A stretch of 16,386 nt of DNA from a virus (Duplodnaviria > Heunggongvirae > Uroviricota > Caudoviricetes): the IMG/VR virus record IMGVR_UViG_2923323785_000006, positions 1 to 16,386 of that record; one strand, 5' to 3'. Positions 2,714 to 16,386 of this stretch are shown one piece after another. Below the pieces are notes generated by a model that was given only the letters and a program-made list of their open reading frames with translations, did no database searches and was not told the DNA's origin. The position numbers were made by a program, and so were the translations under genes. Every line of letters begins with the position of its first letter. The stretch's first letter is position 1.

Positions 2714-2772
2714 ATGATGCGGGCCTGTGGAGTTCTGCCGATCTGACTTATGTCATTACCTATGAAATGTGA
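2701..2772 (+). pseudogene. 3' remnant of minor tail protein U gene (last ~23 codons)
   Basis: In-frame translation [23 protein letters not shown] matches the lambda gpU C-terminus as recalled; no upstream continuation. Confidence 0.6.
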
Positions 2773-2778
2773 GGACGA

Positions 2779-3238
2779 TATGCCTGTACCAAATCCAGCA
2801 ATACCGGTGAAAGGTGCCGGAACCACCCTGTGGGTTTATAACGGGAGCGGCGACTCTTATGCGAACCCGCTTTCAGACGTTGACTGGTCGCGTCTGGCTA
2901 AAGTTAAAGACCTGACGCCCGGCGAACTGACCGCTGAGTCCTATGACGACAGTTATCTCGATGATGAAGATGCGGACTGGACCGCGACCGGGCAGGGGCA
3001 GAAATCCGCCGGAGATACCAGCTTCACGCTGGCGTGGATGCCCGGAGAGCAGGGGCAGCAGGCGCTGCTGGCGTGGTTTAATGAAGGTGATACCCGTGCC
3101 TATAAAATCCGCTTCCCACCACAAGCACGCTGCCGCCACCTTTCAGGGCTGAACGCTGCCCCTTTTTACGACGCCTGCGTCGGGACAGGACAATCCGCGC
3201 GTTACCCAGCTTTATTACGGGCAAATCCCCCCGGTTAA
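2779..3238 (+). pseudogene. Major tail protein V, N-terminal fragment (~113 aa of V fused to 40 unrelated codons)
   Basis: [50 protein letters not shown]...AYKIRFP matches the lambda gpV N-terminus; identity ends near nt 3118, after which the ORF continues in unrelated sequence to a stop at 3238. GAGGA Shine-Dalgarno precedes the ATG at 2779. Confidence 0.85.
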
Positions 3239-3295
3239 CCTTGATTCTGGCCTGCGGATTTTTGACCGTGGCCCTTTTCAGCCTGGCCCTTTCCT

Positions 3296-3880
3296 TTACC
3301 AGTTTCCGGCGTACCTTTGTCTCACGGGCAACCTGTGACGCCGACTGCGATATCGCGGATGAAGCAACGCGGTTATCAGTTCATCCAGCGCGGCTGCTTT
3401 GTTCATGGCTTTGATGATATCCCGTTTCAGGAAATCAACATGTCGGTTTTCCAGTTCCGGAAAACGCCGCTGCACCGACAGGGGGATCCCGTCGAGAATA
3501 CTGGCAATTTCACCTGCGATCCGCGACAGCACGAAAGTACAGAATGCGGTTTCCACCACTTCAGCGGAGTCTCTGGCATTTTTCAGCTCCTGTGCGTCGG
3601 CCTGCGCACGCGTAAGTCGATGGCGTTCGTACTCAATAGTCCCTGGCTGGAGATCTGTCTCGCTGGCCTGCCGCAGTTCTTCAACTTCCCGGCGCAGCTT
3701 TTCGTTCTCAATTTCAGCATCCCTTTCGGCATACCATCTTATAACGGCGGCAGAGTCATAAAGCACCTCATTACCCTTGCCACCGCCTCGCAGAACGGGC
3801 ATTCCCTGTTCCTGCCAGTTCTGAATGGTACGGATACTCGCACCGAAAATGTCAGCCAGCTGCTTTTTGTTGACTTCCAT
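3296..3880 (-). CDS. nohD: Terminase small subunit Nu1 homologue with replaced C-terminus (194 aa)
   Basis: MEVNKKQLADIFGASIRTIQNWQEQGMPVLRGGGKGNEVLYDSAAV... is near-identical to lambda Nu1 up to ...AAALDELI (about residue 171), then diverges (ITALLHPRYRSRRHRLPVRQRYAGNW). No gpA large terminase gene follows. Confidence 0.9.
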   Translation of the reverse strand: MEVNKKQLADIFGASIRTIQNWQEQGMPVLRGGGKGNEVLYDSAAVIRWYAERDAEIENEKLRREVEELRQASETDLQPGTIEYERHRLTRAQADAQELKNARDSAEVVETAFCTFVLSRIAGEIASILDGIPLSVQRRFPELENRHVDFLKRDIIKAMNKAAALDELITALLHPRYRSRRHRLPVRQRYAGNW

Positions 3881-4057
3881 TGTTCATCCCACGGCCAAAA
3901 ACAGAGAAAGGAAACGACAGAGGCCCAAAAGCTCGTTTTCAGCACCTGTCGTTTCCTTTCTTTTCAGGGGGTATTTTAAATAAAAACATTAAGTTACGAC
4001 GAAGAAGAACGGAAATACCTTAAACCGGAAAATTTTCATAAATAGCGAAAACCCGCG
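3881..4057 (-). promoter_or_regulatory. cosB region (Nu1-binding R sites and IHF site between cosN and the Nu1 start)
   Basis: Reverse complement reproduces the lambda left-end leader. R-site-like repeats seen at about 3906-3921, 3946-3961 and 3999-4014 (cgtttcc(t/g)ttct motifs and their complements). Confidence 0.75.
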
Positions 4058-4069
4058 AGGTCGCCGCCC
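4058..4069 (-). promoter_or_regulatory. cosN cohesive-end sequence (GGGCGGCGACCT on minus strand)
   Basis: Plus strand aggtcgccgccc is the exact reverse complement of the 12-nt lambda cohesive end, flanked by lambda-like left-end and right-end sequence. Confidence 0.85.
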
Positions 4070-4268
4070 CGTAACCTGTCGGATCGCCGGAAAGGACCCA
4101 CAAAATGATAATAATTATCATCTACATGTCACAACGTGCATCTACGCCATCAAACCACGTCAAATAATCAATTATGACGCAGGTATCGTATTAATTGATC
4201 TGCATCAACTTAACGTAAAAACAACTTCAGACAATACAAATCAGCGACACTGAATACGGGGCAACCTC

Positions 4269-4463
4269 ATGTCAACTAAGAACAGAACCCGCAGAACAAC
4301 AACCCGCAACATCCGCTTTCCTAACCAAATGATTGAACAAATTAACATCGCTCTTGAGCAAAAAGGGTCCGGGAATTTCTCAGCCTGGGTCATTGAAGCC
4401 TGCCGTCGGAGGCTAACGTCAGAAAAGAGAGCATATACATCAATTAAAAGTGATGAAGAATGA
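4269..4463 (+). CDS. ylcI: Small basic protein (64 aa), lambda right-end / DLP12 ylcI-like; possible ribbon-helix-helix fold
   Basis: ATG at 4269, MSTKNRTRRTTTRNIRFPNQMIEQINIALEQKGSGNFSAWVIEACRRRL...; position between cos and ybcW matches the DLP12 order as I recall it. Symbol assigned by position and length, not verified. Confidence 0.6.
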   Translation: MSTKNRTRRTTTRNIRFPNQMIEQINIALEQKGSGNFSAWVIEACRRRLTSEKRAYTSIKSDEE

Positions 4464-4627
4464 ACATCCCGCGTTCTTCCCTCCGAACAGGACGATATTG
4501 TAAATTCACTTAATTACGAGGGCATTGCAGTAATTGAGTTGCAGTTTTACCACTTTCCTGACAGTGACAGACTGCGTGTTGGCTCTGTCACAGGTTAAGT
4601 AGTTTGAATGATTAGCAGTTATGGTGA

Positions 4628-4834
4628 TCAGTCAACCACCAGGGAATAATCCTTCATATTATTATCGTGCTTCACCAACGCTGCCTCAATTGCCCTGAAT
4701 GCTTCCAGAGACACCTTATGTTCTATACATGCAATTACAACATCAGGGTAACTCATAGAAATGGTGCTATTAAGCATATTTTTTACACGAATCAGATCCA
4801 CGGAGGGATCATCAGCAGATTGTTCTTTATTCAT
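4628..4834 (-). CDS. ybcW: Small prophage protein YbcW-like (68 aa)
   Basis: ATG at 4834 with GGAG 9 nt upstream; translation [40 protein letters not shown]... matches my recollection of DLP12 YbcW. Confidence 0.7.
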
Positions 4835-5119
4835 TTTGTCGCTCCATGCGCTTGCTCTTCATCTAGCGGTTAAAATATTACTTCAAATCTTTCTGTATGA
4901 AGGTTTGAGCACGTTGGCCTTACATACATCTGTCGGTTGTATTTCCCTCCAGAATGCCAGCAGGACCGCACTTTGTTACGCAACCAATACTATTAATTGA
5001 AAACATTCCTAATATTTGACATAAATCATCAACAAAACACAAAGAGGTCAGACCAGATTGAAGCGATAAAAACGATAATGCAAACTACGCGCCCTCGTAT
5101 CACATGGAAGGTTTTACCA

Positions 5120-5530
5120 ATGGCTCAGGTTGCCATTTTTAAAGAAATATTCGATCAAGTGCGAAAAGATTTAAACTGTGAATTGTTTTATTCTGAACTA
5201 AAACGTCACAATGTCTCACATTATATTTACTATCTAGCCACAGATAATATTCACATTGTGTTAGAAAACGATAACACCGTGTTAATAAAAGGACTTAAAA
5301 AGGTTGTAAATGTTAAATTCTCAAGAAATACGCATCTTATAGAAACGTCCTATGATAGGTTGAAATCAAGAGAAATCACATTTCAGCAATACAGGGAAAA
5401 TCTTGCTAAAGCAGGAGTTTTCCGATGGATTACAAATATCCACGAACATAAAAGATATTACTATACCTTTGATAATTCATTACTATTTACTGAGAGCATT
5501 CAGAACACTACACAAATCTTTCCACGCTAA
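5120..5530 (+). CDS. ybcV: DUF1398-family protein YbcV-like (136 aa)
   Basis: ORF track starts at a TTG (4997); the internal ATG at 5120 has a GGAAGG Shine-Dalgarno 8 nt upstream and gives 136 aa ([43 protein letters not shown]...), the length I recall for YbcV. Confidence 0.75.
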
Positions 5531-5820
5531 ATCATAACGTCCGGTTTCTTCCGTGTCAGCACCGGGGTGTTGGCATAATACAATGCATGTACGCGCTAAA
5601 CCCTGTGTGCATCGTTTTTAATTATTCCCGGACACTCCCGCAGAGAAGTTCCCCGTCAGGGCTGTGGACATAGTTAATCCGGGAATACAATGACGATTCA
5701 TCGCACCTGGCATACATTAATAAATATTAACAATATGAAATTTCAACTCATTGTTTAGGGTTTGTTTAATTTTCTACACATACGATTCTGCGAACTTCAA
5801 AAAGCATCGGGAATAACACC

Positions 5821-6114
5821 ATGAAAAAAATGCTACTCGCTACTGCGCTGGCCCTGCTTATTACAGGATGTGCTCAACAGACATTTACTGTTCAAAACAA
5901 ACAGACAGCAGTAGCACCAAAGGAAACCATCACCCATCATTTCTTCGTTTCTGGAATTGGGCAGAAGAAAACTGTCGATGCAGCTAAAATTTGTGGCGGC
6001 GCAGAAAATGTTGTTAAAACAGAAACCCAGCAAACATTCGTAAATGGATTGCTCGGTTTTATTACTTTAGGCATTTATACTCCGCTGGAAGCGCGTGTGT
6101 ATTGCTCAAAATAA
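5821..6114 (+). CDS. borD: Bor outer-membrane lipoprotein (serum-resistance protein, 97 aa)
   Basis: MKKMLLATALALLITGCAQQ... has a lipoprotein signal peptide with lipobox LITGC; near-identical to lambda Bor; opposite strand to the lysis genes as in lambda. Confidence 0.93.
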   Translation: MKKMLLATALALLITGCAQQTFTVQNKQTAVAPKETITHHFFVSGIGQKKTVDAAKICGGAENVVKTETQQTFVNGLLGFITLGIYTPLEARVYCSK

Positions 6115-6145
6115 TTGCATGAGTTGCCCATCGATATGGTCAGCT

Positions 6146-6607
6146 CTATCTGCACTGCTCATTAATATACTTCTGGGTTCCTTCCAGTTGTTTTTGCATA
6201 GTGATCAGCCTCTCTCTGAGGGTGAAATAATCCCGTTCAGCGGTGTCTGCCAGTCGGGGGGAGGCTGCATTATCCACGCCGGAGGCCGTGGTGGCTTCAC
6301 GCACTGACTGACAGACTGCTTTGATGTGCAACCGACGACGACCAGCGGCAACATCATCACGCAGAGCATCATTTTCAGCTTTCGCATCAGCTAACTCCTT
6401 CGTGTATTTTGCATCGAGCGCAGCAACATCACGCTGACGCATCTGCATGTCAGTAATTGCCGCGTTCGCTAGCTTCAGTTCTCTGGCATTTTTGTCGCGC
6501 TGGACTTTGTAGGCGATTGCGTTATCACGGTAATGATTGACCGCCCATGACAGGCTGACGATGATGCAGATAATCAGAGCGGATATAATCGCGGTTACTC
6601 TGCTCAC
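6146..6607 (-). CDS. rzpD: Rz i-spanin (153 aa, GTG start)
   Basis: (M)[59 protein letters not shown]... is near-identical to lambda Rz. GTG at 6607..6605 overlaps the R stop (GTGA); GGGGG Shine-Dalgarno 7 nt upstream. Confidence 0.9.
6205..6387 (-). CDS. rzoD: Rz1 o-spanin lipoprotein embedded in the +1 frame of Rz (60 aa)
   Basis: [60 protein letters not shown]: lipobox VVGC and proline-rich region, matches lambda Rz1 as recalled; lies entirely inside Rz. Confidence 0.88.
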
Positions 6608-7101
6608 TGTTGCCCCCACAAACAGACTTCACGCTCAATCTCACGACGAGTCATCAGGCCTTTCCATTGCTTACCGCCAGCGTATGTCCAGCGACGCAGC
6701 TGATCACATGCGCCTTTGATATCGCCCTGGTTTATTTTGCGAAGAAGCGTCGATGTTCTAAAATTGCCAGCACCCACGTTGTAAACGAATGAGTAAAGAG
6801 CGCCGCGCGTTGTTTCCGGTATATCGACTTTGATATACGGGTTAATTTGTCTGGCGACAGTGGCAAGGTCTTTATTCAAGAGTGCTTTGCATTCTGCTTT
6901 GGTATACGTTTTACCGAGCATGATGTCTTTTCCGGTGTGTCCGTGACATACAGTCCATACACCAACAATATCTTTGTATGGTATGTAGCTGACACCTTCC
7001 AGACCATCGTTACCACTTGGGCCAGTGATTAACACTGATGCTATAGCAATTGCTCCGCCACCAATAGCAGCAGCAACGGCTTTTCGTAATGATGGAGGCA
7101 T
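6604..7101 (-). CDS. rrrD: SAR endolysin (P21 R-type lysozyme, 165 aa)
   Basis: N-terminal signal-anchor-release segment ([20 protein letters not shown]) followed by a T4-lysozyme-like catalytic region; ATG at 7101 overlaps the holin stop (TAATG). Confidence 0.9.
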
Positions 7102-7316
7102 TATTCACCTCTCGCGGCCTTGCGCTTATCTTCTTTAATCTTGAAATAAAGGTTTGTCAGGTACGTCAGCAGGCCAAATACCAGGCTACCCAGCACACCT
7201 ATTGCTGCCCACTGTGAGGGAGTGACTTTATCGAGCAGCTGTAAAAACCAGTAACCGGCACTACCTGCTGAGGTGCCATAGGCGACTCCAGTTGTTAACT
7301 TATCCATGAATTTCAT
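7101..7316 (-). CDS. essD: Pinholin (S21-type, 71 aa, dual-start motif MKFM)
   Basis: [71 protein letters not shown]: two transmembrane segments, Lys before the second Met (holin/antiholin dual start); GAGGTGGGG Shine-Dalgarno upstream of 7316. The ORF-track extension to 7361 is rejected. Confidence 0.88.
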
Positions 7317-7361
7317 AACCCCACCTCGCAGACAAAGCGGGTGTAAATTGAGGGAATACAA

Positions 7362-7904
7362 CGTATCGCAAAAAAGCAGAAACGTAACTGACTCCGAGTC
7401 AGTGAATAACTCAGGTATTGAGTTATCAGCTAATATCGAGACTCAAAAAATGGAAAAACCAGCGCGACGGCGGGTTTAAGCTGTGTGACGAAGTAACCAC
7501 TCTTAACAGCATAACCAATTTTTTACGTACGTAAACCACTGAATGATATTTATGAGAATGCTACCGAGTGTTCAAAACATCACCACAAATACATAAGAAA
7601 ACTTCAACAAATAACCAATAAATAATTTCCAGTGTTATTTTTAGCTGGTTTAAATTAAACAGACGAATTATAGAACCACCATAAATAACAGCCATTAATA
7701 TAAATTAGCTAATAGATTTATTTTTGTTCAAATAAGAGCCATAAATAGGTTTCGATAGAAAAAGTTCAGATAAAAATAGAGATCTACTTCACAAATTAAA
7801 TGAGAAACTAAAACTTACATCTTGAAATAATCACATTGATTAGATGAATATTTATCGCGCAGTGACATCATTTTTTAATAATAGTTCAAAAAAAAGGGCT
7901 CACG
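7362..7904 (+). promoter_or_regulatory. AT-rich ~540-bp non-coding region upstream of nmpC (porin promoter / regulatory region, possible H-NS target)
   Basis: Seen in sequence: long A/T runs (7560-7900) and no credible ORF; lies between the divergent holin and porin starts. Confidence 0.4.
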
Positions 7905-9002
7905 ATGAAAAAATTAACAGTGGCAATTTCTGCTGTAGCTGCATCAGTACTGATGGCGATGTCTGCTCAGGCAGCTGAAATTTATAATAAAGACAGTAAC
8001 AAGCTGGATCTGTACGGGAAAGTTAATGCCAAGCACTACTTTTCCTCTAACGATGCAGATGATGGTGATACTACTTATGTTCGTCTGGGCTTCAAAGGCG
8101 AAACCCAAATCAACGATCAGCTGACTGGTTTCGGTCAGTGGGAATATGAATTCAAAGGCAACCGCGCTGAATCTCAAGGTTCCTCCAAAGACAAAACCCG
8201 TCTTGCATTTGCAGGCCTGAAATTCGGTGACTACGGCTCAATCGATTACGGCCGTAACTACGGTGTAGCATACGACATCGGTGCGTGGACTGACGTTCTG
8301 CCAGAATTCGGTGGCGATACCTGGACCCAAACAGATGTGTTCATGACTGGTCGCACCACTGGTGTTGCAACCTATCGTAACAACGACTTCTTTGGTCTGG
8401 TTGATGGTCTGAACTTTGCTGCTCAGTACCAAGGCAAAAACGATCGTAGCGATTTCGATAACTACACCGAAGGTAACGGTGATGGCTTCGGTTTCTCTGC
8501 TACCTATGAATACGAAGGATTCGGTATCGGTGCAACTTATGCGAAATCTGATCGTACCGACACTCAAGTTAATGCAGGGAAAGTTCTTCCTGAAGTATTT
8601 GCTTCCGGTAAAAATGCAGAAGTTTGGGCCGCAGGTCTGAAATATGACGCTAACAACATTTACCTGGCCACTACCTATTCTGAAACCCAGAATATGACTG
8701 TATTTGCTGATCACTTCGTTGCTAATAAAGCTCAAAACTTCGAAGCTGTTGCACAATATCAGTTCGATTTCGGTCTGCGTCCGTCCGTTGCTTACCTGCA
8801 ATCTAAAGGTAAGGATCTTGGAGTATGGGGCGATCAGGACTTAGTCAAATATGTTGATGTAGGTGCAACCTATTACTTCAACAAAAATATGTCTACTTTC
8901 GTTGATTACAAAATCAACCTGCTTGACAAAAATGACTTCACTAAAGCACTCGGTGTAAGCACTGATGACATCGTTGCTGTAGGTCTGGTTTACCAGTTCT
9001 AA
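7905..9002 (+). CDS. nmpC: General outer-membrane porin NmpC (OmpC/OmpF/PhoE family), intact, 365 aa
   Basis: Signal peptide [23 protein letters not shown], then [17 protein letters not shown]... and C-terminal ...VAVGLVYQF (terminal Phe, beta-barrel signature); classic enterobacterial porin motifs throughout. Confidence 0.93.
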
Positions 9003-9018
9003 TCTGATTACGAAAAAG

Positions 9019-9053
9019 ATATGTTGCGGGAGGCGTTGCCTCCCCAACATATA
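9019..9053 (-). terminator. Long hairpin (about 15 bp with one bulge) followed on the minus strand by CTTTTTCG; candidate tR'-like terminator of the late leader
   Basis: Seen in sequence: atatgttgcgggaggc / gcctccccaacatat inverted repeat; U-tract on the minus strand only; sits about 140-170 nt downstream of the Q stop. Confidence 0.5.
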
Positions 9054-9140
9054 AGTGGCTCCCTCAAGCCACTTCCTTTAGGAGCACAACCTTGCTTCTA
9101 ACTATATAAACCTTCTGTTATATATTACCCTTTATTTTTG

Positions 9141-9165
9141 GGGGCGTTGCAACGCCCCATTTTTA
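9141..9165 (+). terminator. Intrinsic terminator (ggggcg-ttgcaa-cgcccc followed by ATTTTTA), probable nmpC terminator
   Basis: Seen in sequence: perfect 6-bp GC stem, 6-nt loop, T-tract on + strand. Confidence 0.65.
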
Positions 9166-9191
9166 ATAACTTTCAGTAAACAATTGGCATA

Positions 9192-9575
9192 TTAATTAGA
9201 GTTATTAACAACGATATCCATCTCTAACCGGATATCTAATGCCATTAACATCCCTTCAATTATGCCCTCAGCCTTCTGTAACCTTTTCCCGATATAACCA
9301 TCAGAGCAGCAATGCTTACCTGCCAGTGACATGAATGTCATACCGACTACATAATAATCTACTAATAAATCGTGCAAATCGCTGTTGTTCTTTTTCAGAC
9401 GGGCCATGCACCCGCAAATGATCATCGCGTCATCGTCACAACATTGCGGGCGAGATTTTACTTTTGAAGGAATTAATCCCTTAAAACCGGCGGCAATGGA
9501 CGACCAGGTCACATCTTCATGATTATTAGCCGCCCACGCTCCCCAACGTTCAAGAACCATCTGAATATCACGCAT
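9192..9575 (-). CDS. quuD: Late-gene antiterminator Q (127 aa)
   Basis: [62 protein letters not shown]... matches my recollection of DLP12 QuuD; ATG at 9575 with GGAGAAAG Shine-Dalgarno; position directly upstream of the lysis cassette. Confidence 0.85.
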
Positions 9576-9592
9576 TAACTTTCTCCACAAAA

Positions 9593-10588
9593 TCAGGCCA
9601 GCACACCAATCGCCAGTGCGCGATCGATAAAACGAAATATCAGCTCCAGCTGGGAGCCATACTTCTCTTCAAATGCCACGGTATCCGCATGCAGTTCGTC
9701 GTGGTGTTTTCTGCACAAAGGCAGCACAAAAAGGTCATGCGCTTTTGTACCCATTCCACCCTGACCATGGCCTATCAGATGATGCGGATCATCAGCTGGC
9801 TTTCCACAACATGCACACGGCTGCGTCTTAACCCAGCGCGTGTACTGTTCATTAACCCAGCGACGACGTTTGGGGCGTAACATAAAAGACTCCGGCGACT
9901 CCGGATCCACTTTCAGCGCCAGCACCTTTTTCGCTTTATCCTGGATAATGCTGGTGGCAGGAACCGAAGGCACAAGGTCACTTTCCCGGGTGACAGACGG
10001 CAAAACAGACTTCGGTAATCTCAGTGCCTTACGGGCTGCGCTTTCCGGTAAGGCATCCGCCAGGTCATTACGAACCAGCCACCAGCACAGTTCCGGCATT
10101 GTCACGGCATGGTTATCATTAAAATCGAGATCCCGACGGACTACAGACAACACCCAATGGGCACAGTTATCCGTTGCCATTGATTCCAGCCGCTCCGTGA
10201 ACTGATCACGTAACTGATTATCGCAGTGCCAGCACAGACGGATTGCGCCCGGCGCGTGTCGCATTGTGGTCATGTTCTCGCTGTGCCAGTCGGAATGAGG
10301 CCACTGGCAGCCTTTTTCACGAAGTAACCAGCTTTCAAGACATTCCACCCCACCAGCACGACGAATCACTGCCTCATTACGGAACACGGCCCGAACGGCA
10401 GGATCATCCGCCAGCGGTTGTGATGCCGCGGGAACGGCACCACTGGCGAAAGATGAATAATGCTCCGGCTCAGGCTCCAGCAGTACACGCCCCTGCATAA
10501 ACAGGGGCATCAGCTCTGAACCGGGCCTGAACAATACGATCCCCATACGCGGGGCAATTTCAGGGGTCAGTAGTGCTCTCACGGTCAC
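9593..10588 (-). CDS. DUF968-like (YdfU-like) protein with C-terminal HNH-like metal-binding motif (about 329-331 aa; start GTG at 10588 or 10582)
   Basis: C-terminal ...[46 protein letters not shown]... has CxxC, His-His and C..HH..H spacing typical of HNH nucleases; additional CWHC motif mid-protein. Sits immediately upstream of Q, like ydfU-quuQ in the Qin prophage (from memory). Confidence 0.7.
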
Positions 10589-10589
10589 C

Positions 10590-11387
10590 TCAATGAACGG
10601 TATCGAGCAGCTTTAACAGCTCAGGGAATCGGGATTCGAAGAAATGCGGCTGCGTCTCGCGCGGATTTGCGGGACTGGTGATGTTCTTGCCGAACATGCA
10701 GCCTTTCGCTGTCAGCGACCAGAATTTTTTGATGTTGTTAATAGCGGTACGGCTGTATCGTTCGCGCTGCTCGACGATCCCCAGCTTCACCATCTGGTGA
10801 TATGCCTGATTAGCTGTCAGGCGGATACCATACTGCTTCAGCAGTGCACTCAGTGACAGCGTGGGACGGCTTGAGCCATCAGGCGCGTCAGCAGGAGCAT
10901 CAATGGCATAGCGCGGTGCCAGATTCGGTAAGCCAACAGCCTCCTGGAGTTTCTGACAGGCACCAAGCACTGAAGAGTTAGACAGGTTTAACTCCCGGCG
11001 CATAAAGTCCAGCAGAATCACGCCAGCCTGCATCTTGTCAGCAGCCTGCCCGGATAATTTTTCCGATGCGCTGGTTACCATATCGAAAGTACGGATCACC
11101 TTCAGATGGAATGACGGGCTGATCCACATTGCATAGGCATACACCAGTTCTTTGCAGACATACGTCCCCTGGTTATTTCCGCCACGAATAACGTTAACTG
11201 GCTCTATATTGACCGAGTTGCAAATCTGCAACTCGCTTATTAAACGTTCAGTTTGCTCATTGCGGAGCCAGAATGCAGGCTTATGCTTATCCAGAGAACC
11301 GGCAGCCCTGTGCAGATCGTTCAGGCTGTAACGCCCATAAGCATCACGACGAACTTCAATACCATCAATGACCATCAGATTATTCAT
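10590..11387 (-). CDS. KilA-N domain protein with ANT/KilAC-like C-terminal half (antirepressor-like, 265 aa)
   Basis: N-terminus MNNLMVIDGIEVRRDAYGRYSLNDLHRAAGSLDKHKPAFWLRNEQTERLISEL... resembles the KilA-N fold family; ATG at 11387 with AGAGGAGAAA Shine-Dalgarno. The ORF-track GTG extension to 11420 is rejected. Confidence 0.72.
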   Translation of the reverse strand: MNNLMVIDGIEVRRDAYGRYSLNDLHRAAGSLDKHKPAFWLRNEQTERLISELQICNSVNIEPVNVIRGGNNQGTYVCKELVYAYAMWISPSFHLKVIRTFDMVTSASEKLSGQAADKMQAGVILLDFMRRELNLSNSSVLGACQKLQEAVGLPNLAPRYAIDAPADAPDGSSRPTLSLSALLKQYGIRLTANQAYHQMVKLGIVEQRERYSRTAINNIKKFWSLTAKGCMFGKNITSPANPRETQPHFFESRFPELLKLLDTVH

Positions 11388-11406
11388 ACTTCGTTTCTCC
11401 TCTTGA

Positions 11407-11796
11407 TCAGGCGGCTGCACCCGCCGTTTTCTCGTACTTACTGATAGTGATCTCGACCTTCCCTTCCGGGATAACCGGTCCCCACTCCACCAGCATTCTT
11501 TTCACCTGGCTGTCGTCTTCCCACACACCCGCGTGGGTCAGGGCGTCAAACAGCGCCTTGTTATAGTTGTCCAGATCGCGGATCCGGTTATCCGGAGGAA
11601 ACAACACGATCTCCACTGAAGCAGGTGCCGACGTTGGTTTCGGCAGACGACGTAACTGCTCAACTATTGCTGTGCACGCCGCACTCTGGAATTTTCGCCC
11701 CGCCGCGCTTATCAGGCTCTTACCAGCAAATGCCCCTTTGTTGGGGTGTCGCCAGTAGGTGTTCACGCTGGGTGGAAAAGGCAGAATCAGCTTCAT
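11407..11796 (-). CDS. rusA: RusA-family Holliday junction resolvase (129 aa)
   Basis: MKLILPFPPSVNTYWRH... and RDLDNYNKALFDALTHAGVWEDDSQV match RusA catalytic-region motifs. ATG at 11796 overlaps the stop of the upstream gene (ATGA); GAGGGGG Shine-Dalgarno. Confidence 0.85.
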   Translation of the reverse strand: MKLILPFPPSVNTYWRHPNKGAFAGKSLISAAGRKFQSAACTAIVEQLRRLPKPTSAPASVEIVLFPPDNRIRDLDNYNKALFDALTHAGVWEDDSQVKRMLVEWGPVIPEGKVEITISKYEKTAGAAA

Positions 11797-12119
11797 ACTT
11801 TCAGCCCCCTCTCATGTAACCAGTGGGCTGCACGCAGCCTGGCGTTTTCCTCACCAGCAAGCAGTGCGCGGATAATCCCGGCCACCTCGCTGTCGTCGTC
11901 CTTCACCGCGGTATGAAGCGTGATGCCCCGGGCCACGCCACGCTTTATCGTGATGACGCCTTTTTTCTCCAGTGCGCGAAGATGCTCCACCGCTGCATTC
12001 ACTGAACGGTATCCCAGCATGGTAGCCACCTCCTGATTGGTTGGCGGGAAGCCACGTTCTTTCTGGTAAGAAATCAGCATATCCAGCACCTGCTGCTGGC
12101 ATTGAGTTAACGTCGTCAT
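11793..12119 (-). CDS. LexA N-terminal DNA-binding-domain-only protein (about 108 aa; no S24 peptidase domain)
   Basis: MTTLTQCQQQVLDMLISYQKERGFPPTNQEVATMLGYRSVNAAVEHLRALEKKGVITIKRGVARGITL aligns position-by-position with the LexA winged-helix domain (recalled from memory); the protein ends about 40 aa later. ATG at 12119 overlaps the upstream stop (TAATG); GGGGG Shine-Dalgarno. Confidence 0.8.
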   Translation of the reverse strand: MTTLTQCQQQVLDMLISYQKERGFPPTNQEVATMLGYRSVNAAVEHLRALEKKGVITIKRGVARGITLHTAVKDDDSEVAGIIRALLAGEENARLRAAHWLHERGLKV

Positions 12120-12370
12120 TAAGCCCCCACGTAATTCCCTGACAGATACCACTCTTCACCCGATACAGCGCGCTTGCTGCTTTTCCGTAAACACCGCTCA
12201 CGACGCGCAAGAAAATTGTTTCGCTCTTGCTGGGAGTGGCTTTCACGGAATGCCGCCATCCACACCGTTGCAGCACGACGGTATAAGCCCCTGGACTCCA
12301 GTTCTTCCGCCTGGCGGGTCAGGCACAAAATCACCCGGGGATCGTTAGTGCCGACATAGAAATTGTGCAC
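12119..12370 (-). CDS. Small PerC/Pch-like putative transcriptional activator (83 aa, GTG start)
   Basis: Motif AEELESRGLYRRAATVWMAAF resembles the LE..G.WRRAA..W core I recall for the PerC family; family assignment is from memory and the start codon is GTG without a strong Shine-Dalgarno. Confidence 0.5.
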   Translation of the reverse strand: MHNFYVGTNDPRVILCLTRQAEELESRGLYRRAATVWMAAFRESHSQQERNNFLARRERCLRKSSKRAVSGEEWYLSGNYVGA

Positions 12371-12406
12371 AGGTCTGGATTCACGAACTGGTTGCGGTTC
12401 CGGCTC

Positions 12407-12607
12407 CTACGGTATCTCAGTCAGCCGCGGGAAATGTCTGCGTGTATCCCCTTCACAACGGTGAGCCACACGCCCACTCTGACGTAACTTGCTTGCTGAC
12501 TGCAGAACGCGCTGTCGTGAGTAACCTGCAAAAGCATCAGCAATGTCTCCGGAAGTACACCCCGGATGGGCTTCAATGAATTTCTGAACGTCATTCAAAA
12601 GACTCAT
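12407..12607 (-). CDS. Small hypothetical protein (66 aa), possible winged-helix DNA-binding fold; first gene of the minus-strand operon
   Basis: ATG at 12607 with GGGGGTGA Shine-Dalgarno 6 nt upstream; MSLLNDVQKFIEAHPGCTSGDIADAFAGYSRQRVLQSASKLRQSGRV... The ORF-track extension to 12730 is rejected (Arg/Gln-rich, no ribosome-binding site). Confidence 0.45.
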   Translation of the reverse strand: MSLLNDVQKFIEAHPGCTSGDIADAFAGYSRQRVLQSASKLRQSGRVAHRCEGDTRRHFPRLTEIP

Positions 12608-12849
12608 GATCACCCCCTGAATCCTGCCGGGATCTGGCTGTAGTCCACGTTGTCGTAACTGGCTTTGAAGTACGGGTCTTCGCGTTTTTCGGTGTACGTG
12701 CTGACTATTCTGCAGGAAGACTATGGACAATTACTGACTCTTGCCGGTGAACCTGACGGAAAACTACGCGCAGCAGGTCATTAATATCGTTCTTAATAAA
12801 CTGATTATTTATCTCATCACTGAATATCTTTATATAGTGAGGACTTATT
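12608..12849. promoter_or_regulatory. Divergent intergenic region between the minus-strand (nin/Q/late) and plus-strand (yfdQ...int) operons; presumed promoters, no repressor gene
   Basis: No ORF with repressor features on either strand; AGTGAGGA Shine-Dalgarno for the first plus-strand gene at 12836-12843; promoter hexamers not confidently assignable by eye. Confidence 0.4.
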
Positions 12850-13674
12850 ATGTCTCAGAACTTAGACGCAACCGCAATTAATCAAATCCATGCCCTTATT
12901 TCTGCTCAGGGTGTTAATGAAATTATCAGTAAGATTTGTGCCGATGCTGTGGCATTGCCTGAGAATTTCCGCATTCATGATCTGGAAAAATTTAATTTAA
13001 ATCGCTTCCGTTTCCGTGGTGCGCTTTCCACTGCCAGCATCGATGACTTTACCCGTTATTCTAAAGATCTTGCAGATGAAGGCACCCGCTGCTTTATCGA
13101 TGCCGATAATATGCAAGCCGTCAGTGTGCTTAACCTGGGTACTATTGATGAACCAGGTCACGCAGATAACACCGCCACTCTCAAACTGAAAAAGACAGCA
13201 CCGTTCTCTGCCCTGTTGTCTGTTAACGGCGAGCGTAACTCCCAGAAGTCACTGGCAGAATGGATTGAAGACTGGGCCGACTACCTTGTGGGCTTTGATG
13301 CTAATGGTGACGCCATTCAGGCAACCAAAGCGGCTGCGGCGATCCGTAAAATCACAATTGAAGCGAACCAGACCGCTGATTTTGAAGATAATGACTTCAG
13401 CGGCAAACGCTCCCTGATGGAGTCTGTCGAAGCGAAGACCAAAGACATTATGCCAGGGGCATTTGAATTTAAATGCGTTCCGTTTGAAGGTCTGAAAGAA
13501 CGTCCATTTAAATTACGCCTCAGCATTATCACTGGCGATCGTCCTGTACTGGTTCTGCGCATTATTCAGCTGGAAGCGGTGCAGGAAGAAATGGCTAACG
13601 AATTTCGTGATCTGCTTGTTGAGAAATTCAAAGACAGCAAAGTAGAAACCTTTATTGGTACTTTCACCGCCTGA
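12850..13674 (+). CDS. yfdQ: YfdQ-like protein (DUF2303-type, 274 aa)
   Basis: [21 protein letters not shown]...; length and sequence match my recollection of CPS-53 YfdQ; first gene of a four-gene cluster. Confidence 0.75.
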
Positions 13675-13686
13675 TTTCATTACTGC

Positions 13687-13710
13687 AAATGCCCCTGCGG
13701 GGGCATTTAT
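13687..13710 (+). terminator. Hairpin (tgcccc-tgcg-ggggca) followed by TTTAT; candidate attenuator or terminator between the first two cluster genes
   Basis: Seen in sequence: aaatgcccctgcgggggcattt near-perfect inverted repeat directly after the yfdQ-like stop. Confidence 0.5.
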
Positions 13711-13801
13711 GGAAACGTAATTAACTCAATAATCACCGGATGGTGAGGGCTTCCTTTTACCAGAATTCAGCGCGGTGCAGTGCATACACGTGGAGAACAA
13801 A

Positions 13802-14338
13802 ATGTCATTTATTAAAACTTTTTCCGGGAAGCATTTTTATTATGACAAGATAAATAAAGACGACATCGATATTAACGATATCGCGGTTTCCCTTTCAAAT
13901 ATCTGTCGCTTTGCCGGTCATCTTTCGCACTTCTACAGCGTCGCCCAACATGCGGTTCTTTGCAGCCAGCTGGTGCCGCAGGAATTTGCTTTTGAAGCGT
14001 TAATGCATGATGCAACAGAAGCGTATTGCCAGGACATTCCCGCACCACTGAAACGCCTTCTTCCTGACTATAAACGGATGGAAGAAAAAATAGACGCCGT
14101 AATCCGTGAGAAATACGGGTTACCCCCAGTTATGAGTACACCCGTGAAATATGCCGATCTCATCATGCTGGCAACCGAACGCCGCGATCTCGGGCTTGAT
14201 GATGGCTCTTTCTGGCCTGTACTGGAAGGCATCCCGGCAACAGAGATGTTCAACGTGATTCCACTGGCACCGGGTCATGCCTACGGGATGTTTATGGAAC
14301 GTTTTAACGATTTATCGGAGTTACGCAAATGCGCATGA
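13802..14338 (+). CDS. yfdR: HD-domain phosphohydrolase, YfdR-like 5'-deoxynucleotidase (178 aa)
   Basis: ATG at 13802 with GGAGAA Shine-Dalgarno; HD-domain metal-binding signature ...FAGHLSHFYSVAQHAVL...MHDATEAY...; length equals K-12 YfdR as recalled. The ORF-track GTG start at 13775 is rejected. Confidence 0.85.
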   Translation: MSFIKTFSGKHFYYDKINKDDIDINDIAVSLSNICRFAGHLSHFYSVAQHAVLCSQLVPQEFAFEALMHDATEAYCQDIPAPLKRLLPDYKRMEEKIDAVIREKYGLPPVMSTPVKYADLIMLATERRDLGLDDGSFWPVLEGIPATEMFNVIPLAPGHAYGMFMERFNDLSELRKCA

Positions 14339-14691
14339 ATGTTTTCGAAATGGAAGGGTTTCTTCGCGGGAAATGTGTACCGCGAGATCTGAAAGTGAAC
14401 GAAACAAATGCTGAGTACCTGGTACGTAAATTCGACGCGCTTGAAGCTAAATGTGCGGCACTGGAAAACAAAATAATACCAGTGTCAGCTGAACTGCCAC
14501 CAGCAAATGAAAGTGTTCTGTTATTTGATGCTAATGGAGAAGGCTGGCTGATTGGCTGGCGTTCTCTCTGGTACACCTGGGGACAAAAAGAAACCGGAGA
14601 ATGGCAGTGGACATTTCAGGTCGGGGACCTTGAAAACGTCAATATCACTCACTGGGCAGTAATGCCAAAAGCACCGGAGGCTGGAGCATAA
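14329..14691 (+). CDS. yfdS: YfdS-like protein (120 aa)
   Basis: MRMNVFEMEGFLRGKCVPRDLKVNETNAEYLV...; overlaps the upstream stop by 10 nt, and its stop overlaps the next start (TAATG). Confidence 0.7.
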   Translation: MRMNVFEMEGFLRGKCVPRDLKVNETNAEYLVRKFDALEAKCAALENKIIPVSAELPPANESVLLFDANGEGWLIGWRSLWYTWGQKETGEWQWTFQVGDLENVNITHWAVMPKAPEAGA

Positions 14692-14996
14692 TGACCACAT
14701 TTACCAATAAAGAACTGATTAAAGAAATCAAAGAACGAATCAGCAGCCTAGAGGTTCGAGACGATATTGAGCGCCGTGCTTATGAAATCGCACTCGTATC
14801 TCTGGAAGTAGAGCCAGATGAACGCGAAGCCTATGAATTATTCATGGAAAAGCGTTTCGGTGACTTAGTAGATCGTCGGAGAGCAAAAAACGGCGATAAC
14901 GAATACATGGCATGGGATATGACTCTCGGTTGGATCGTCTGGCAGCAACGAGCTGGTATCCATTTTTCAACAATGACACAGCAAGAGGTGAAATAA
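14691..14996 (+). CDS. yfdT: YfdT-like protein (101 aa)
   Basis: MTTFTNKELIKEIKERISSLEVRDD...; start and stop both share bases with the neighbouring genes (TAATG junctions). Confidence 0.7.
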   Translation: MTTFTNKELIKEIKERISSLEVRDDIERRAYEIALVSLEVEPDEREAYELFMEKRFGDLVDRRRAKNGDNEYMAWDMTLGWIVWQQRAGIHFSTMTQQEVK

Positions 14997-15367
14997 TGGA
15001 GCCATACAGCCTCACACTCGATGAGGCCTGTCAGTTTCTTAAGATATCCAGACCAACCGCCACCAACTGGATACGAACAGGCCGCCTACAGGCAACACGT
15101 AAAGATCCAACCAAGCCAAAATCTCCTTACCTCACAACACGGCAAGCTTGCATTGCGGCGCTTCAGTCTCCGCTGCATACTGTCCAGGTGAGCGCGGGTG
15201 ATGGCATAACAGAGGAAAGAAAATGTCACTCTTCCGCAGAAATGAAATATGGTATGCCTCGTATTCGCTCCCGGGCGGGAAACGAATTAAGGAATCTCTT
15301 GGCACAAAGGACAAGCGGCAAGCTCAGGAGTTGCACGACAAGCGAAAAGCAGAACTCTGGCGAGTAG
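14996..15367 (+). CDS. Excisionase-like HTH protein (AlpA/Xis family); 3' end uncertain, reading frame overlaps int by 145 nt
   Basis: ATG at 14996 with GAGGTGA Shine-Dalgarno; [32 protein letters not shown] resembles excisionase-type HTH domains; position immediately upstream of int. The tail beyond about residue 65 may be a frameshift artefact. Confidence 0.55.
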
Positions 15368-16386
15368 AAAAGCTAGGGGATTTACCTGATGTCACTTTTG
15401 AAGAGGCCTGCCTAAGATGGCTTGAGGAAAAAGCTGATAAAAAATCTCTCGATTCAGATAAAAGCCGGATTGAGTTTTGGCTTGAACATTTTGAGGGTAT
15501 AAGGCTTAAAGATATCTCGGAGGCAAAGATTTACTCTGCTGTAAGCAGAATGCATAACAGAAAGACGAAAGAAATATGGAAACAGAAAGTTCAGGCCGCC
15601 ATCAGGAAAGGTAAAGAACCGCCTGTTTATGAACCAAAGCCAGTATCAACTCAGACAAAGGCAAAGCATCTTGCCATGATAAAGGCCATTCTCCGTGCTG
15701 CAGAACGCGACTGGAAGTGGCTGGAAAAAGCGCCTGTCATCAAGATACCAGCGGTCAGAAACAAGCGAGTCAGATGGCTGGAAAAGGAGGAAGCAAAACG
15801 CCTTATTGATGAGTGCCCCGAACCACTGAAATCTGTCGTCAAGTTTGCGCTGGCAACTGGTCTGAGAAAGTCGAACATCATAAATCTGGAATGGCAACAA
15901 ATCGACATGCAGCGACGAGTTGCCTGGGTGAATCCAGAAGAGAGCAAATCAAACCGCGCCATTGGTGTGGCGCTGAACGATACCGCCTGTAAAGTGTTGC
16001 GTGATCAAATAGGCAAGCATCACAAATGGGTGTTTGTACATACCAAGGCGGCTAAGCGAGCAGATGGAACATCAACGCCTGCGGTCAGGAAGATGCGCAT
16101 CGACAGCAAGACATCATGGCTATCAGCTTGTCGTCGTGCAGGAATTGAAGATTTCCGTTTCCATGACCTCAGACACACCTGGGCAAGCTGGCTGATCCAG
16201 TCAGGCGTCCCATTATCTGTGCTTCAGGAAATGGGCGGATGGGAGTCCATAGAAATGGTTCGTAGGTATGCTCACCTTGCGCCTAATCATTTGACAGAGC
16301 ATGCAAGGAAAATAGACGACATTTTTGGTGATAATGTCCCAAATATGTCCCACTGTGGAATTATGGAGGATATAAAGAAGGCGTAA
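15223..16386 (+). CDS. intD: Tyrosine site-specific integrase (P21/DLP12 IntD-type, 387 aa)
   Basis: [50 protein letters not shown]...; C-terminal catalytic motifs ...[39 protein letters not shown] (R..H-x-x-R...Y). GAGGAAAG Shine-Dalgarno; the stop codon is the last 3 nt of the window. Confidence 0.93.

What the first reader, a model, noticed from the sequence alone, without database searches (positions are those of the whole stretch)
12850..14996. yfdQ-yfdR-yfdS-yfdT-like cluster transplanted into the early-left position of a DLP12-type prophage
Four consecutive ORFs of 274, 178, 120 and 101 aa match the lengths and N-termini I recall for the CPS-53 genes yfdQ, yfdR, yfdS and yfdT, but here they lie directly upstream of xis and a P21/DLP12-type int, showing module exchange between prophage lineages. 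YfdR is an HD-domain 5'-deoxynucleotidase. From the literature as I recall it (Noguchi and Katayama, 2016, to be verified), YfdR binds DnaA and overexpression of the cluster inhibits chromosomal replication initiation. A nucleotide-pool or replication-interfering module under an early promoter could act in host takeover or in exclusion of superinfecting phage. A hairpin directly after yfdQ (13687-13710) may attenuate expression of yfdRST.
Basis: partly seen in the sequence, partly recalled or inferred. Interest (0 to 1): 0.5.

Follow-up and report, generated by a model that had tools for sequence, protein, structure and literature searches.

The report
Known phage yfdQRST cassette, conserved RNA spacer
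The four genes really are yfdQ, yfdR, yfdS and yfdT, but they sit in their normal place in a decayed lambdoid prophage rather than being transplanted; the one fresh point is that the gap between yfdQ and yfdR is a widely conserved structured RNA element that no RNA-family database lists.

Summary
The ORFs at 12850-13674, 13802-14338, 14329-14691 and 14691-14996 are 99/99/100/98% identical in protein to K-12 YfdQ/R/S/T, and xis and int follow directly.

The order cI...yfdP-yfdQ-yfdR-yfdS-yfdT-xis-int is the native early-left operon of living phages (SfV, SfIV, PhiR29_1, PhiR49_1, Kati). The yfdT-xis-intD junction occurs in 353 of 5426 complete E. coli genomes. K-12 CPS-53 keeps a dead relic of this same xis straight after yfdT, so CPS-53 is the rearranged copy.

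In this window a 4.2-kb deletion (junction 12701-12705, seen in one genome only) removed most of the O gene, cro, cI, the early-left leader and yfdP. The cluster is therefore not under an early promoter here. Int and Xis are P22-type, not P21-type.

The Noguchi and Katayama 2016 recollection is accurate.

The hairpin is real. It is the first of three covarying helices in a 133-nt element (13675-13807) found in more than 150 loci across Enterobacterales. The element occurs with or without yfdQ upstream or yfdR downstream and has no Rfam match.

The cluster itself is ordinary. The RNA element deserves follow-up.

The parts
12119..12613 (-). yfdN (PerC-family) pseudogene with an internal stop. 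This is the left end of the homology to CPS-53.
   Evidence: PGAP annotation of the identical genome. The ORF is split. Window 12116-12705 is 95% identical to K-12 and 99% to PhiR29_1.
12610..12705 (-). 3' remnant of the replication gene O (yfdO-type). It ends at the deletion junction.
12701..12705 (.). Deletion junction with CTGAC microhomology. Relative to phage PhiR29_1, 4.2 kb is missing: most of O, ymfM/L-like genes, cro, cI, the early-left leader and most of yfdP.
   Evidence: blastn of the window against L003: 12116-12705 matches 4027-4616 and 12701-16386 matches 8852-12537. The junction is contiguous in only 1 of 5426 genomes.
12701..12784 (+). yfdP 3' remnant (last ~26 codons).
   Evidence: tblastn YfdP residues 94-119 at 96%. 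PGAP calls it a partial CDS.
12850..13674 (+). yfdQ, DUF2303 family, 274 aa.
   Evidence: 99% identical to K-12 YfdQ. PF10065 scores 306 bits. PDB 9o7m 'YfdQ protein' matches at E=2e-45.
13675..13807 (+). Conserved structured spacer element: H1, a single-stranded stretch, H2, a conserved single strand, H3, then the Shine-Dalgarno GGAGAA and the ATG of the next gene.
   Evidence: Covariance model R1 scores 112 bits here and 56-146 bits in 100 loci. Across 92 distinct sequences, 97.4% of cells are paired and 10 of 17 pairs show compensatory changes; 0 of 500 shuffles reach these values. There is no Rfam match.
13687..13708 (+). H1: GC-rich 9-bp hairpin followed by AUUUAU. It resembles a weak intrinsic terminator or a 3'-end stabiliser.
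   Evidence: Annotated as 'terminator' in phage Ayreon. The consensus terminator scan does not call it.
13733..13746 (+). H2: UCACC-GGAU-GGUGA (family consensus UCGCC-N4-GGCGA). It is followed by the near-invariant single strand GAGGGAUUCGUGCAACCAAAAU at 13746-13767 (its first base is the last base of H2; the window variant reads GAGGGCUUCCUUUUACCAGAAUU).
   Evidence: Alignments A5, A7 and A9.
13770..13783 (+). H3: short helix GCGC/GUGC around the near-invariant loop G-GUGCA-G.
   Evidence: All four modelled pairs covary.
13802..14338 (+). yfdR, HD-domain phosphohydrolase, 178 aa. The K-12 protein is the reported DnaA binder.
   Evidence: 99% identical to K-12 YfdR. phrog_318 scores 369 bits. 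The HD residues in QH, MHDATE and YADL are read directly from the sequence. PMC4776307.
14329..14691 (+). yfdS: coiled-coil N-terminus plus a DUF551 C-terminal domain.
   Evidence: 100% identical to K-12 YfdS. PF04448 scores 22.2 bits against a cut-off of 22. PHROG matches split into N- and C-terminal modules.
14691..14996 (+). yfdT, 101 aa, no Pfam family.
   Evidence: 98% identical to K-12 YfdT. phrog_660.
14996..15367 (+). xis, P22-type, 123 aa, apparently intact. It overlaps int by 145 nt.
   Evidence: phrog_2907 matches at full length. 75% identical to P22 Xis over 122 aa. PGAP annotates only 14996-15061, as a pseudogene.
15223..16386 (+). intD, tyrosine integrase. The argU tRNA lies just beyond the window.

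Best explanation
The window is a 16.4-kb cryptic prophage at argU. It is a decayed member of a living lambdoid lineage (PhiR29_1, PhiR49_1, Kati; related to SfV). In that lineage yfdP-yfdQ | yfdR-yfdS-yfdT-xis-int is the normal distal half of the early-left operon.

yfdQRST is therefore a known accessory cassette in its usual position. The mosaic exchange happened at xis/int, and CPS-53 is the rearranged derivative.

In intact phages the genes are transcribed leftward from the cI-side promoter through a long leader of roughly 400-600 nt (inferred from gene order). In this window a 4.2-kb deletion removed that promoter, the leader, cI/cro and yfdP. The cluster here is probably silent or only weakly expressed (inferred).

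Function. For the near-identical K-12 proteins it has been shown that YfdR binds DnaA domain I (Phe46) and competes moderately with DiaA and DnaB. Multicopy yfdQ+yfdR plus either yfdS or yfdT inhibits oriC initiation. The most likely natural role is dampening host replication initiation during lytic growth (inferred).

The yfdQ-yfdR gap is a conserved RNA element. H1 most likely acts as a partial terminator or 3'-end stabiliser that separates the upstream unit from the translationally coupled yfdR-S-T-xis block. H2, the conserved single strand and H3 most likely form a leader that controls read-through or expression of whatever gene follows (inferred).
For: - Identity to K-12 proteins.
- Same order in phages, with cI upstream.
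- Identical xis-int in active phages.
- Window versus PhiR29_1 synteny and the deletion.
- Frequencies among complete E. coli genomes: 1587 of 5426 carry at least 80% of window 12700-15300, and 353 of 5426 carry the yfdT-xis-intD junction.
- xis relic in CPS-53 and the complementary relic in DLP12 xisD.
- Literature: PMC4776307 and PMC12315714.
- Purifying selection.
- yfdP-yfdQ are adjacent in essentially all 71 genome loci, while yfdR follows within ~150 nt in about 50 and yfdS/T occur mainly in the E. coli type.
- RNA element.
- Frequent G.U pairs in H1 that would be C.A mismatches on the other strand point to an RNA on the sense strand.
Against: - No expression data exist for this strain.
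- The replication phenotype was seen only at high copy. Deleting yfdQRST gave no phenotype, and the authors themselves caution that the effect may be an artefact.
- No phage mutant has been tested.
- H1 has only about 4 U in the 8 nt after its GC core and is not called by the consensus terminator scan.
- The RNA alignments were fitted to the model and the sequences are related by descent, so the covariation statistics are inflated to an unknown degree.
- YfdQ has no informative fold relatives.
Confidence: 0.8

Rival explanations
1. yfdQRST was moved from a CPS-53-type phage into the early-left slot of a DLP12/P21-type prophage, where an early promoter drives it as a host-takeover or exclusion module.
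For: K-12 DLP12 has different genes in this slot (exoD', peaD, renD, emrE and others). Only window 3363-9610 and 15128-16386 match K-12 DLP12, so DLP12-site prophages do differ in this region.
Against: - The whole segment 8752-16386 is collinear with the active phage PhiR29_1, apart from a missing ~650-bp Dam gene and the 4.2-kb deletion.
- The cassette is joined to this xis in SfV-type and PhiR29-type phages and even, as a relic, in CPS-53.
- The promoter region is deleted here.
- There are no matches to anti-phage defence models.
- Int and Xis are P22-type.
Confidence: 0.07
2. The cluster is a domesticated, host-beneficial module (stress tolerance). Host selection keeps it intact while the rest of the prophage decays.
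For: - All four ORFs are intact and 98-100% conserved, whereas the flanking yfdN, O, yfdP and tail genes are pseudogenes.
- As cited in PMC4776307, yfdQ and yfdS deletions raise H2O2 sensitivity (Wang 2010) and a yfdQ deletion raises MMS sensitivity (Rooney 2009).
- The cluster is present in about 30% of complete E. coli genomes.
Against: - The low dN/dS can equally reflect selection in the active-phage state, because the same alleles circulate in inducible phages.
- This copy lacks a promoter.
- yfdQRST deletion had no replication or hydroxyurea phenotype (abstract).
Confidence: 0.12
3. The conserved spacer is not a functional RNA. It is a conserved recombination 'linker' at a module boundary, and its palindromes are DNA-level features such as protein operators.
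For: - The element sits exactly where gene content switches. Downstream it is followed by yfdR, Ea22-like, repeat-protein or exonuclease-like genes. Upstream it follows either yfdQ or a non-coding leader.
- Symmetric changes in a palindrome also preserve a dimer-binding operator.
Against: - H1 contains many G.U and U.G pairs (GU 14+26, UG 21+12+2 among 92 sequences). These pair only in RNA of the + strand.
- Loop lengths vary freely while the stems are kept.
- The single-stranded stretch and the H3 loop are nearly invariant across genera in which the flanking proteins are only 55-70% identical.
Confidence: 0.2

Closest known systems
K-12 CPS-53 (KplE1) yfdP-yfdQ-yfdR-yfdS-yfdT cluster (Noguchi and Katayama 2016)
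   Same: The proteins are 98-100% identical, with the same order and the same intergenic spacer. Homology runs from yfdN to about 60 nt past the yfdT stop.
   Different: In the window yfdP and the region between yfdO and yfdP are deleted. The window has a full xis plus intD at argU, whereas CPS-53 has a dead xis stub, then torI and attR at argW, with intS at the other end.
Early-left operons of Shigella phages SfV/SfIV (orf32-orf28, xis, int) and E. coli phages PhiR29_1, PhiR49_1 and Kati
   Same: The order cI ... yfdP-Q-R-S-T-xis-int is identical, with 97-99% nt identity over the cluster. In PhiR29/PhiR49/Kati the xis-int is also 99.6-99.9% identical.
   Different: Those are complete phages with cI, cro, O and the leader. 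SfV's xis and int are only 77% and 73% identical in protein.
E. coli YfbR, the 5'-deoxynucleotidase (HD domain)
   Same: It has the HD-domain motif residues, and Pfam YfbR-like is the best-scoring Pfam family.
   Different: YfdR scores below the family thresholds: Pfam 24.3 against 25.9 bits, and the NCBIfam equivalog 19.9 against 122 bits. Its reported nucleotide affinity is much lower (PMC4776307). YfdR is a distant relative, not an orthologue.
Phage lambda ea22/ea8.5 region between the recombination genes and xis
   Same: The position is the same, just upstream of xis. YfdS and YfdT share the modular N-terminal coiled-coil plus swappable C-terminal domain plan of Ea22-like proteins, and DUF551 also occurs in an Ea22 variant (PMC10834534; PHROG split matches).
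   Different: There is no detectable sequence homology to lambda Ea22 itself, and the function is unknown.
HK022 put RNAs and lambda/P22 nut sites (cis-acting antitermination signals of early operons)
   Same: Like these signals, the spacer is a conserved structured RNA in an early operon. The phages concerned lack an N homologue (stated for phage LLS in PMC12315714). The conserved single strand followed by a short hairpin with an invariant loop resembles the boxA-boxB layout.
   Different: Model R1 finds nothing in HK022 (best E=0.07). put RNAs are two long adjacent stem-loops of about 70 nt next to the promoter (PMC9378689). No boxA consensus is present, and the GUGCAG loop is unlike the GNRA-like boxB loops. 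The element lies after a terminator-like hairpin and can lie mid-operon.

Membership tests
YfdQ family (Pfam DUF2303, PF10065) | Full-length match to the family profile above the curated cut-off. | tested here: met
   306.2 bits against a cut-off of 26.6, covering residues 7-272 of 274. 99% identical to K-12 YfdQ.
K-12 yfdQRST cluster (as studied by Noguchi and Katayama) | Four consecutive co-oriented genes orthologous to yfdQ, yfdR, yfdS and yfdT. | tested here: met
   99/99/100/98% protein identity with the same order and spacing.
K-12 yfdQRST cluster (as studied by Noguchi and Katayama) | YfdR binds DnaA, and overexpression inhibits oriC initiation. | not testable with these tools
   Shown for the K-12 proteins only (PMC4776307). 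The window YfdR differs by one residue, V23D.
YfbR-type 5'-deoxynucleotidase (PF12917 / NCBIfam NF003009) | Score above the curated family threshold. | tested here: not met
   Pfam 24.3 against 25.9 bits. NCBIfam 19.9 against 122 bits.
HD-domain phosphohydrolase superfamily | Conserved H...HD...D metal-binding residues. | tested here: met
   H49 (AQH), H69-D70 (MHDATE) and D119 (YADL) are read from the sequence. YfdR aligns to the HD protein Atu1052 (2gz4) at E=3.7e-14. phrog_318 scores 369 bits.
DUF551 (PF04448), for YfdS | Match above the gathering score. | tested here: met
   22.2 bits against a cut-off of 22, residues 50-117. The match is marginal.
P22-type excisionase | Full-length similarity to P22 Xis (~116 aa) with an N-terminal HTH. 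| tested here: met
   75.4% identity over residues 1-122 to P22 Xis. phrog_2907 matches 1-116 of 117. HTH_17 scores 35.5 bits.
   No phage 21 integrase sequence was compared. The nearest relatives found are E. coli argU-type phages at 99% nt identity, then Stx/POCJ13 phages at about 81% nt and P22-like Salmonella phages at about 78% nt.
Canonical intrinsic (Rho-independent) terminator | GC-rich hairpin immediately followed by a run of at least 5 U in 8 nt. | tested here: inconclusive
   The GC-rich stem is present and conserved. The tail has 4 U of 8 in the window and a mean of 4.0 across 41 lineages. The scan does not call it.
HK022 put antiterminator RNA | About 70 nt, two long adjacent stem-loops, homologous to putL/putR. 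| tested here: not met
   The covariance model search of HK022 with filters off gives a best E of 0.07, and the two best hits (the only ones shown as alignments) match mainly the model's unstructured or Shine-Dalgarno/ATG positions. The architecture also differs.
Any Rfam 15 RNA family | cmscan match at E of 1 or lower. | tested here: not met
   No match in 12600-15300.
Known anti-phage defence systems (PADLOC-DB 2.0) | Match of any of YfdP/Q/R/S/T to a defence-protein model. | tested here: not met
   0 families at E of 0.01 or lower.

The most novel reading that the evidence does not exclude
The 133-nt yfdQ-yfdR spacer (13675-13807) may be an undescribed cis-regulatory RNA of the early-left operon of N-less lambdoid phages. 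It consists of H1, H2, the single strand GAGGGAUUCGUGCAACCAAAAU and H3 with a GUGCAG loop.

It is the 3' module of a conserved leader of roughly 400-600 nt. The optional yfdP-yfdQ cassette is inserted between an H3-like hairpin and H1.

It could be a factor-independent or host-factor-dependent read-through or processing signal. In that case it would decide how much of the operon beyond it (yfdR ... xis-int) is expressed.
Probability: 0.35. Interest if true: 0.55.

Novelty: already known. Interest (0 to 1): 0.3.

Why it matters
The gene cluster itself adds nothing new. It is a well-known and very common prophage cassette in its normal context, and this copy has lost its promoter.

Three corrections are useful:
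- yfdQRST should be read as part of an SfV/PhiR29-type early-left operon.
- CPS-53 and K-12 DLP12 carry complementary relics of one P22-type xis.
- yfdP-yfdQ is the tightly linked core, while yfdR, yfdS and yfdT are looser add-ons.

The item worth pursuing is the conserved structured spacer. Early-operon control in lambdoid phages without an N protein is not understood. An element this widespread and this well conserved, placed between a terminator-like hairpin and the next gene, is a concrete and testable candidate for that control.

Tried and rejected
- **Defence role.** No PADLOC match for YfdP/Q/R/S/T.
- **Other proteins in the PDB.** YfdP, YfdS and YfdT have no significant sequence relative.
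- **Promoter for yfdQ in the window.** None was predicted on the + strand.
- **HK022 put homology of the spacer.** Negative.
- **Alternative long-range helix.** RNAalifold proposed GCG (after H1) pairing with CGC (the 5' arm of H3). I rejected it because the window and L081-type sequences carry A at the first position without a compensating change (read).
- **Coding potential of the spacer.** Rejected: indels are not multiples of three and all three codon positions are invariant.
- **Zimmerman et al. 2008** (YfdR enzymology, PMC2504004) is not held in the library. The enzymatic claim therefore rests on Noguchi's summary.
- **Python access to the K-12 locus** failed at first. I worked around this with the tool aligners.
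Full report
**Observation.** The window holds ORFs at 12850-13674 (274 aa), 13802-14338 (178 aa from the ATG; the mechanical ORF starts at a GTG at 13775), 14329-14691 (120 aa) and 14691-14996 (101 aa). BLASTP against the K-12 CPS-53 proteins gives 270/274, 177/178, 120/120 and 99/101 identities. Window stretch 12700-15300 is 100% identical to E. coli MB06101, where PGAP names the genes yfdQ, yfdR, 'phage protein' and yfdT, followed by intD and tRNA-Arg (argU). Family searches give DUF2303 at 306 bits for YfdQ. YfdR is an HD domain just below the YfbR-like threshold. YfdS is a marginal DUF551. YfdT has no Pfam family. All four match phage protein families. dN/dS against SfV, K-12 and phage Ayreon is 0.0-0.2 in 10 of 11 comparisons.

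**Context.** Mapping the window onto the MB06101 annotation shows that it spans a whole 16.4-kb cryptic prophage. From left to right it carries:
- tail-fibre fragments and a small terminase subunit;
- ylcI, ybcW, ybcV and bor;
- the rzpD-rrrD-essD lysis genes, an intact porin and quuD;
- DUF968, KilA-N, RusA and LexA-like genes;
- yfdN (internal stop), an O-gene remnant and a yfdP remnant;
- yfdQRST, xis and int.

Against K-12 DLP12, only 3363-9610 and 15128-16386 match. Against the sequenced phage PhiR29_1 (recorded host ECOR13), 8752-16386 is collinear at 95-99% identity, with two exceptions. A Dam methylase gene of about 650 bp is missing (junction 12116-12119). A 4.2-kb deletion is present, with its junction at 12701-12705 and CTGAC microhomology. 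That deletion removed most of O, two ymf-like genes, cro, cI, the non-coding leader and all but the last ~26 codons of yfdP. The deletion junction is contiguous in only one of 5426 complete E. coli genomes.

**Is the cluster 'transplanted'?** No.
- The order cI ... yfdP-yfdQ-yfdR-yfdS-yfdT-xis-int occurs in SfV (orf32-orf28, xis, int), SfIV, PhiR29_1/2, PhiR49_1 and Kati at 97-99% nt identity. Partial versions occur in mEp460, cdtI, Ayreon, 2H10 and many Stx2c phages.
- The xis-int of the window is 99.6-99.9% identical to that of PhiR29, PhiR49 and Kati.
- Among complete E. coli genomes, 1587 of 5426 carry at least 80% of 12700-15300, and 353 carry the yfdT-xis-intD junction.
- In K-12 CPS-53 the homology does not stop at the yfdT stop codon. 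It runs about 60 nt further, into the first ~20 codons of this same xis, where the ATG is mutated to ATA inside the annotated 'ypdJ'.
- K-12 DLP12 xisD holds the complementary 3' part, from window position 15128 onward.

CPS-53 is therefore the rearranged copy, and the recombination breakpoints lie within xis.

**xis and int.** The 123-aa xis ORF (14996-15367) overlaps int by 145 nt. It matches the excisionase PHROG over its full length and is 75% identical to P22 Xis over 122 residues. It looks intact, although PGAP annotates only its first 66 nt as a pseudogene. The closest int/xis relatives outside the E. coli argU group are Stx/POCJ13-type and P22-like phages. 'P22-type' is therefore the better label. 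No phage 21 integrase was compared.

**Function of the proteins.** A multicopy suppressor screen of hda-185 recovered yfdQRST. The minimal set is yfdQ plus yfdR plus either yfdS or yfdT. The cluster inhibits initiation in several backgrounds. YfdR binds DnaA in a Phe46-dependent way and competes moderately with DiaA and DnaB. Deletion has no phenotype, and the authors caution that the overexpression effect might be an artefact. They already noted the SfV homologues (PMC4776307).

YfdR carries the HD residues but is not a YfbR orthologue. Its nucleotide affinities are reported as much lower than YfbR's. YfdQ has no informative fold relative. A 36-chain PDB entry 9o7m, 'YfdQ protein', exists, but I found no paper for it. 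None of the proteins matches a defence model.

In 71 genome loci from many Enterobacterales genera, yfdP-yfdQ adjacency is essentially universal. yfdR follows within ~150 nt in about 50 of them. yfdS and yfdT occur mainly in the E. coli-type loci, with only fragmentary matches elsewhere. The core unit is therefore yfdPQ, and this window has lost yfdP.

**Expression in this window.** The native promoter, leader and immunity region are deleted. The genes upstream lie on the opposite strand, and the consensus scan finds no + strand promoter in 12300-15400. 'Under an early promoter' does not hold for this copy. It does hold, by position, for the intact relatives.

**The hairpin and the spacer.** The hairpin at 13687-13708 is real, with dG -15 kcal/mol. 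In 63 distinct sequences downstream of yfdQ, 61 have a stem of at least 8 bp within 70 nt of the stop codon, against 10% of dinucleotide shuffles. There are 31 different 7-bp stem cores. RNAalifold finds compensatory changes in 6 of 8 pairs. The tail is short: AUUUAU in the window, and a mean of 4 U in 8 nt across lineages. The consensus scan does not call it a terminator, although the annotators of phage Ayreon did.

Aligning the whole spacer showed that all 133 nt are conserved. The parts, in order, are:
- H1;
- a conserved stretch, GUGAAGCGUAAUU in the consensus;
- H2 (UCGCC-N4-GGCGA; window 13733-13746);
- a near-invariant single strand, GAGGGAUUCGUGCAACCAAAAU;
- H3, a short helix around a near-invariant GUGCAG loop (window 13770-13783);
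- GGAGAA and the start codon of the next gene.

A covariance model built from 16 sequences finds the full-length element in every locus searched, at 56-146 bits. On 92 distinct sequences, 97.4% of cells pair and 10 of 17 pairs show changes on both sides. None of 500 shuffles reaches these values, and the slid controls reach 41-59% pairing. These figures are inflated to some degree, because the sequences are related and the alignment was fitted to the model. Abundant G.U pairs in H1 argue for an RNA of the sense strand.

The element is not tied to yfdR. It also precedes Ea22-like, repeat-protein and exonuclease-like genes. It is not tied to yfdQ either. Of 120 IMG/VR contigs that carry its core motif, 59 have yfdQ immediately upstream, 53 do not, and 8 lie too close to a contig end to tell. 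In the 36 no-yfdQ contigs searched, the whole element is present. In the 25 of these whose upstream region was examined, no long ORF precedes it. In L101, the one locus read in full, it ends a non-coding stretch of roughly 500-600 nt downstream of the cI-side promoter region, directly before the first early-left gene.

Blocks of that leader are shared with the region upstream of yfdP in SfV and PhiR29_1. They include a GUGGAGAA-CUAA motif followed by a hairpin with an H3-like loop. yfdP-yfdQ therefore looks like an optional cassette inserted between that hairpin and H1.

There is no Rfam match and no similarity to HK022 put by the model. No N homologue is known in phage LLS, an early-left-operon relative of these phages (PMC12315714).

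My reading is that H1 acts as a partial terminator or 3'-end stabiliser, and that H2, the single strand and H3 form a leader controlling expression of what follows. This is inference only.

**Verdict.** The cluster is correctly identified but ordinary and already described, and it sits in its usual place. This particular copy is a promoter-less remnant. The module-exchange story should be reversed.

Noticed in passing
window 14996-15367: The xis ORF is full length (123 aa, 75% identical to P22 Xis) and overlaps int by 145 nt. PGAP, in the identical genome, annotates only the first 66 nt, as a pseudogene. This is probably a mis-annotation.
   Followed up: yes
window 14996-15058 and 15128-15367; K-12 loci L002 12179-12241 and L077 1859-2080: K-12 carries two complementary relics of this one xis gene. 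Codons 1 to ~20 lie after yfdT in CPS-53 (ATG mutated to ATA, inside 'ypdJ'). The 3' part is DLP12 xisD.
   Followed up: yes
window 1 (= L001 3302) and its left flank in L001 1-3301: The prophage's left flank in MB06101 consists of con-10/YciG-like, YciE/YciF-family, ferritin-like and Mn-catalase genes. K-12 DLP12 is flanked on that side by appY and ompT. This suggests a chromosomal rearrangement at the prophage's tail-fibre end.
   Followed up: no
window 12116-12119: A Dam-type methyltransferase gene of about 650 bp lies between the LexA-like gene and yfdN in PhiR29_1 and SfV. It is cleanly absent here. K-12 keeps a fragment of it (yfdM).
   Followed up: partly
window 160-358 (-): There is a full-length Rfam match to IS009 (229 bits), a predicted sRNA, inside the tail-fibre assembly gene.
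   Followed up: no
window 7905-9002: The nmpC/OmpD-type porin gene is intact here. In K-12 DLP12 it is interrupted by IS5.
   Followed up: no
window 701-3300: This stretch is a patchwork of tail gene fragments (tail fibre, gpU, tail tube, tail protein) on both strands. It points to several deletions or inversions in the late region.
   Followed up: no
L101 6904-7546; L004 6155-6573: The leader of the early-left operon is about 420 nt in SfV and 500-600 nt in L101, non-coding, and shares conserved blocks between phages with and without yfdPQ. It includes a GUGGAGAA-CUAA motif plus a hairpin whose loop resembles that of H3. Only the last 133 nt were analysed for structure.
   Followed up: partly
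PDB 9o7m (not in the window): A solved structure named 'YfdQ protein' has 36 chains and matches the window's YfdQ at E=2e-45. This implies a large assembly. It is missing from the fold-search libraries and no publication was found.
   Followed up: partly
PhiR29_1 locus L003 4521-5462; PMC12315714: PhiR29_1, like phage LLS, appears to encode only an O-type replication protein, with no helicase or loader next to it. YfdR binds the DnaB-docking site of DnaA, so a link between yfdPQR and this 'O-only' replication type may be worth testing.
   Followed up: no
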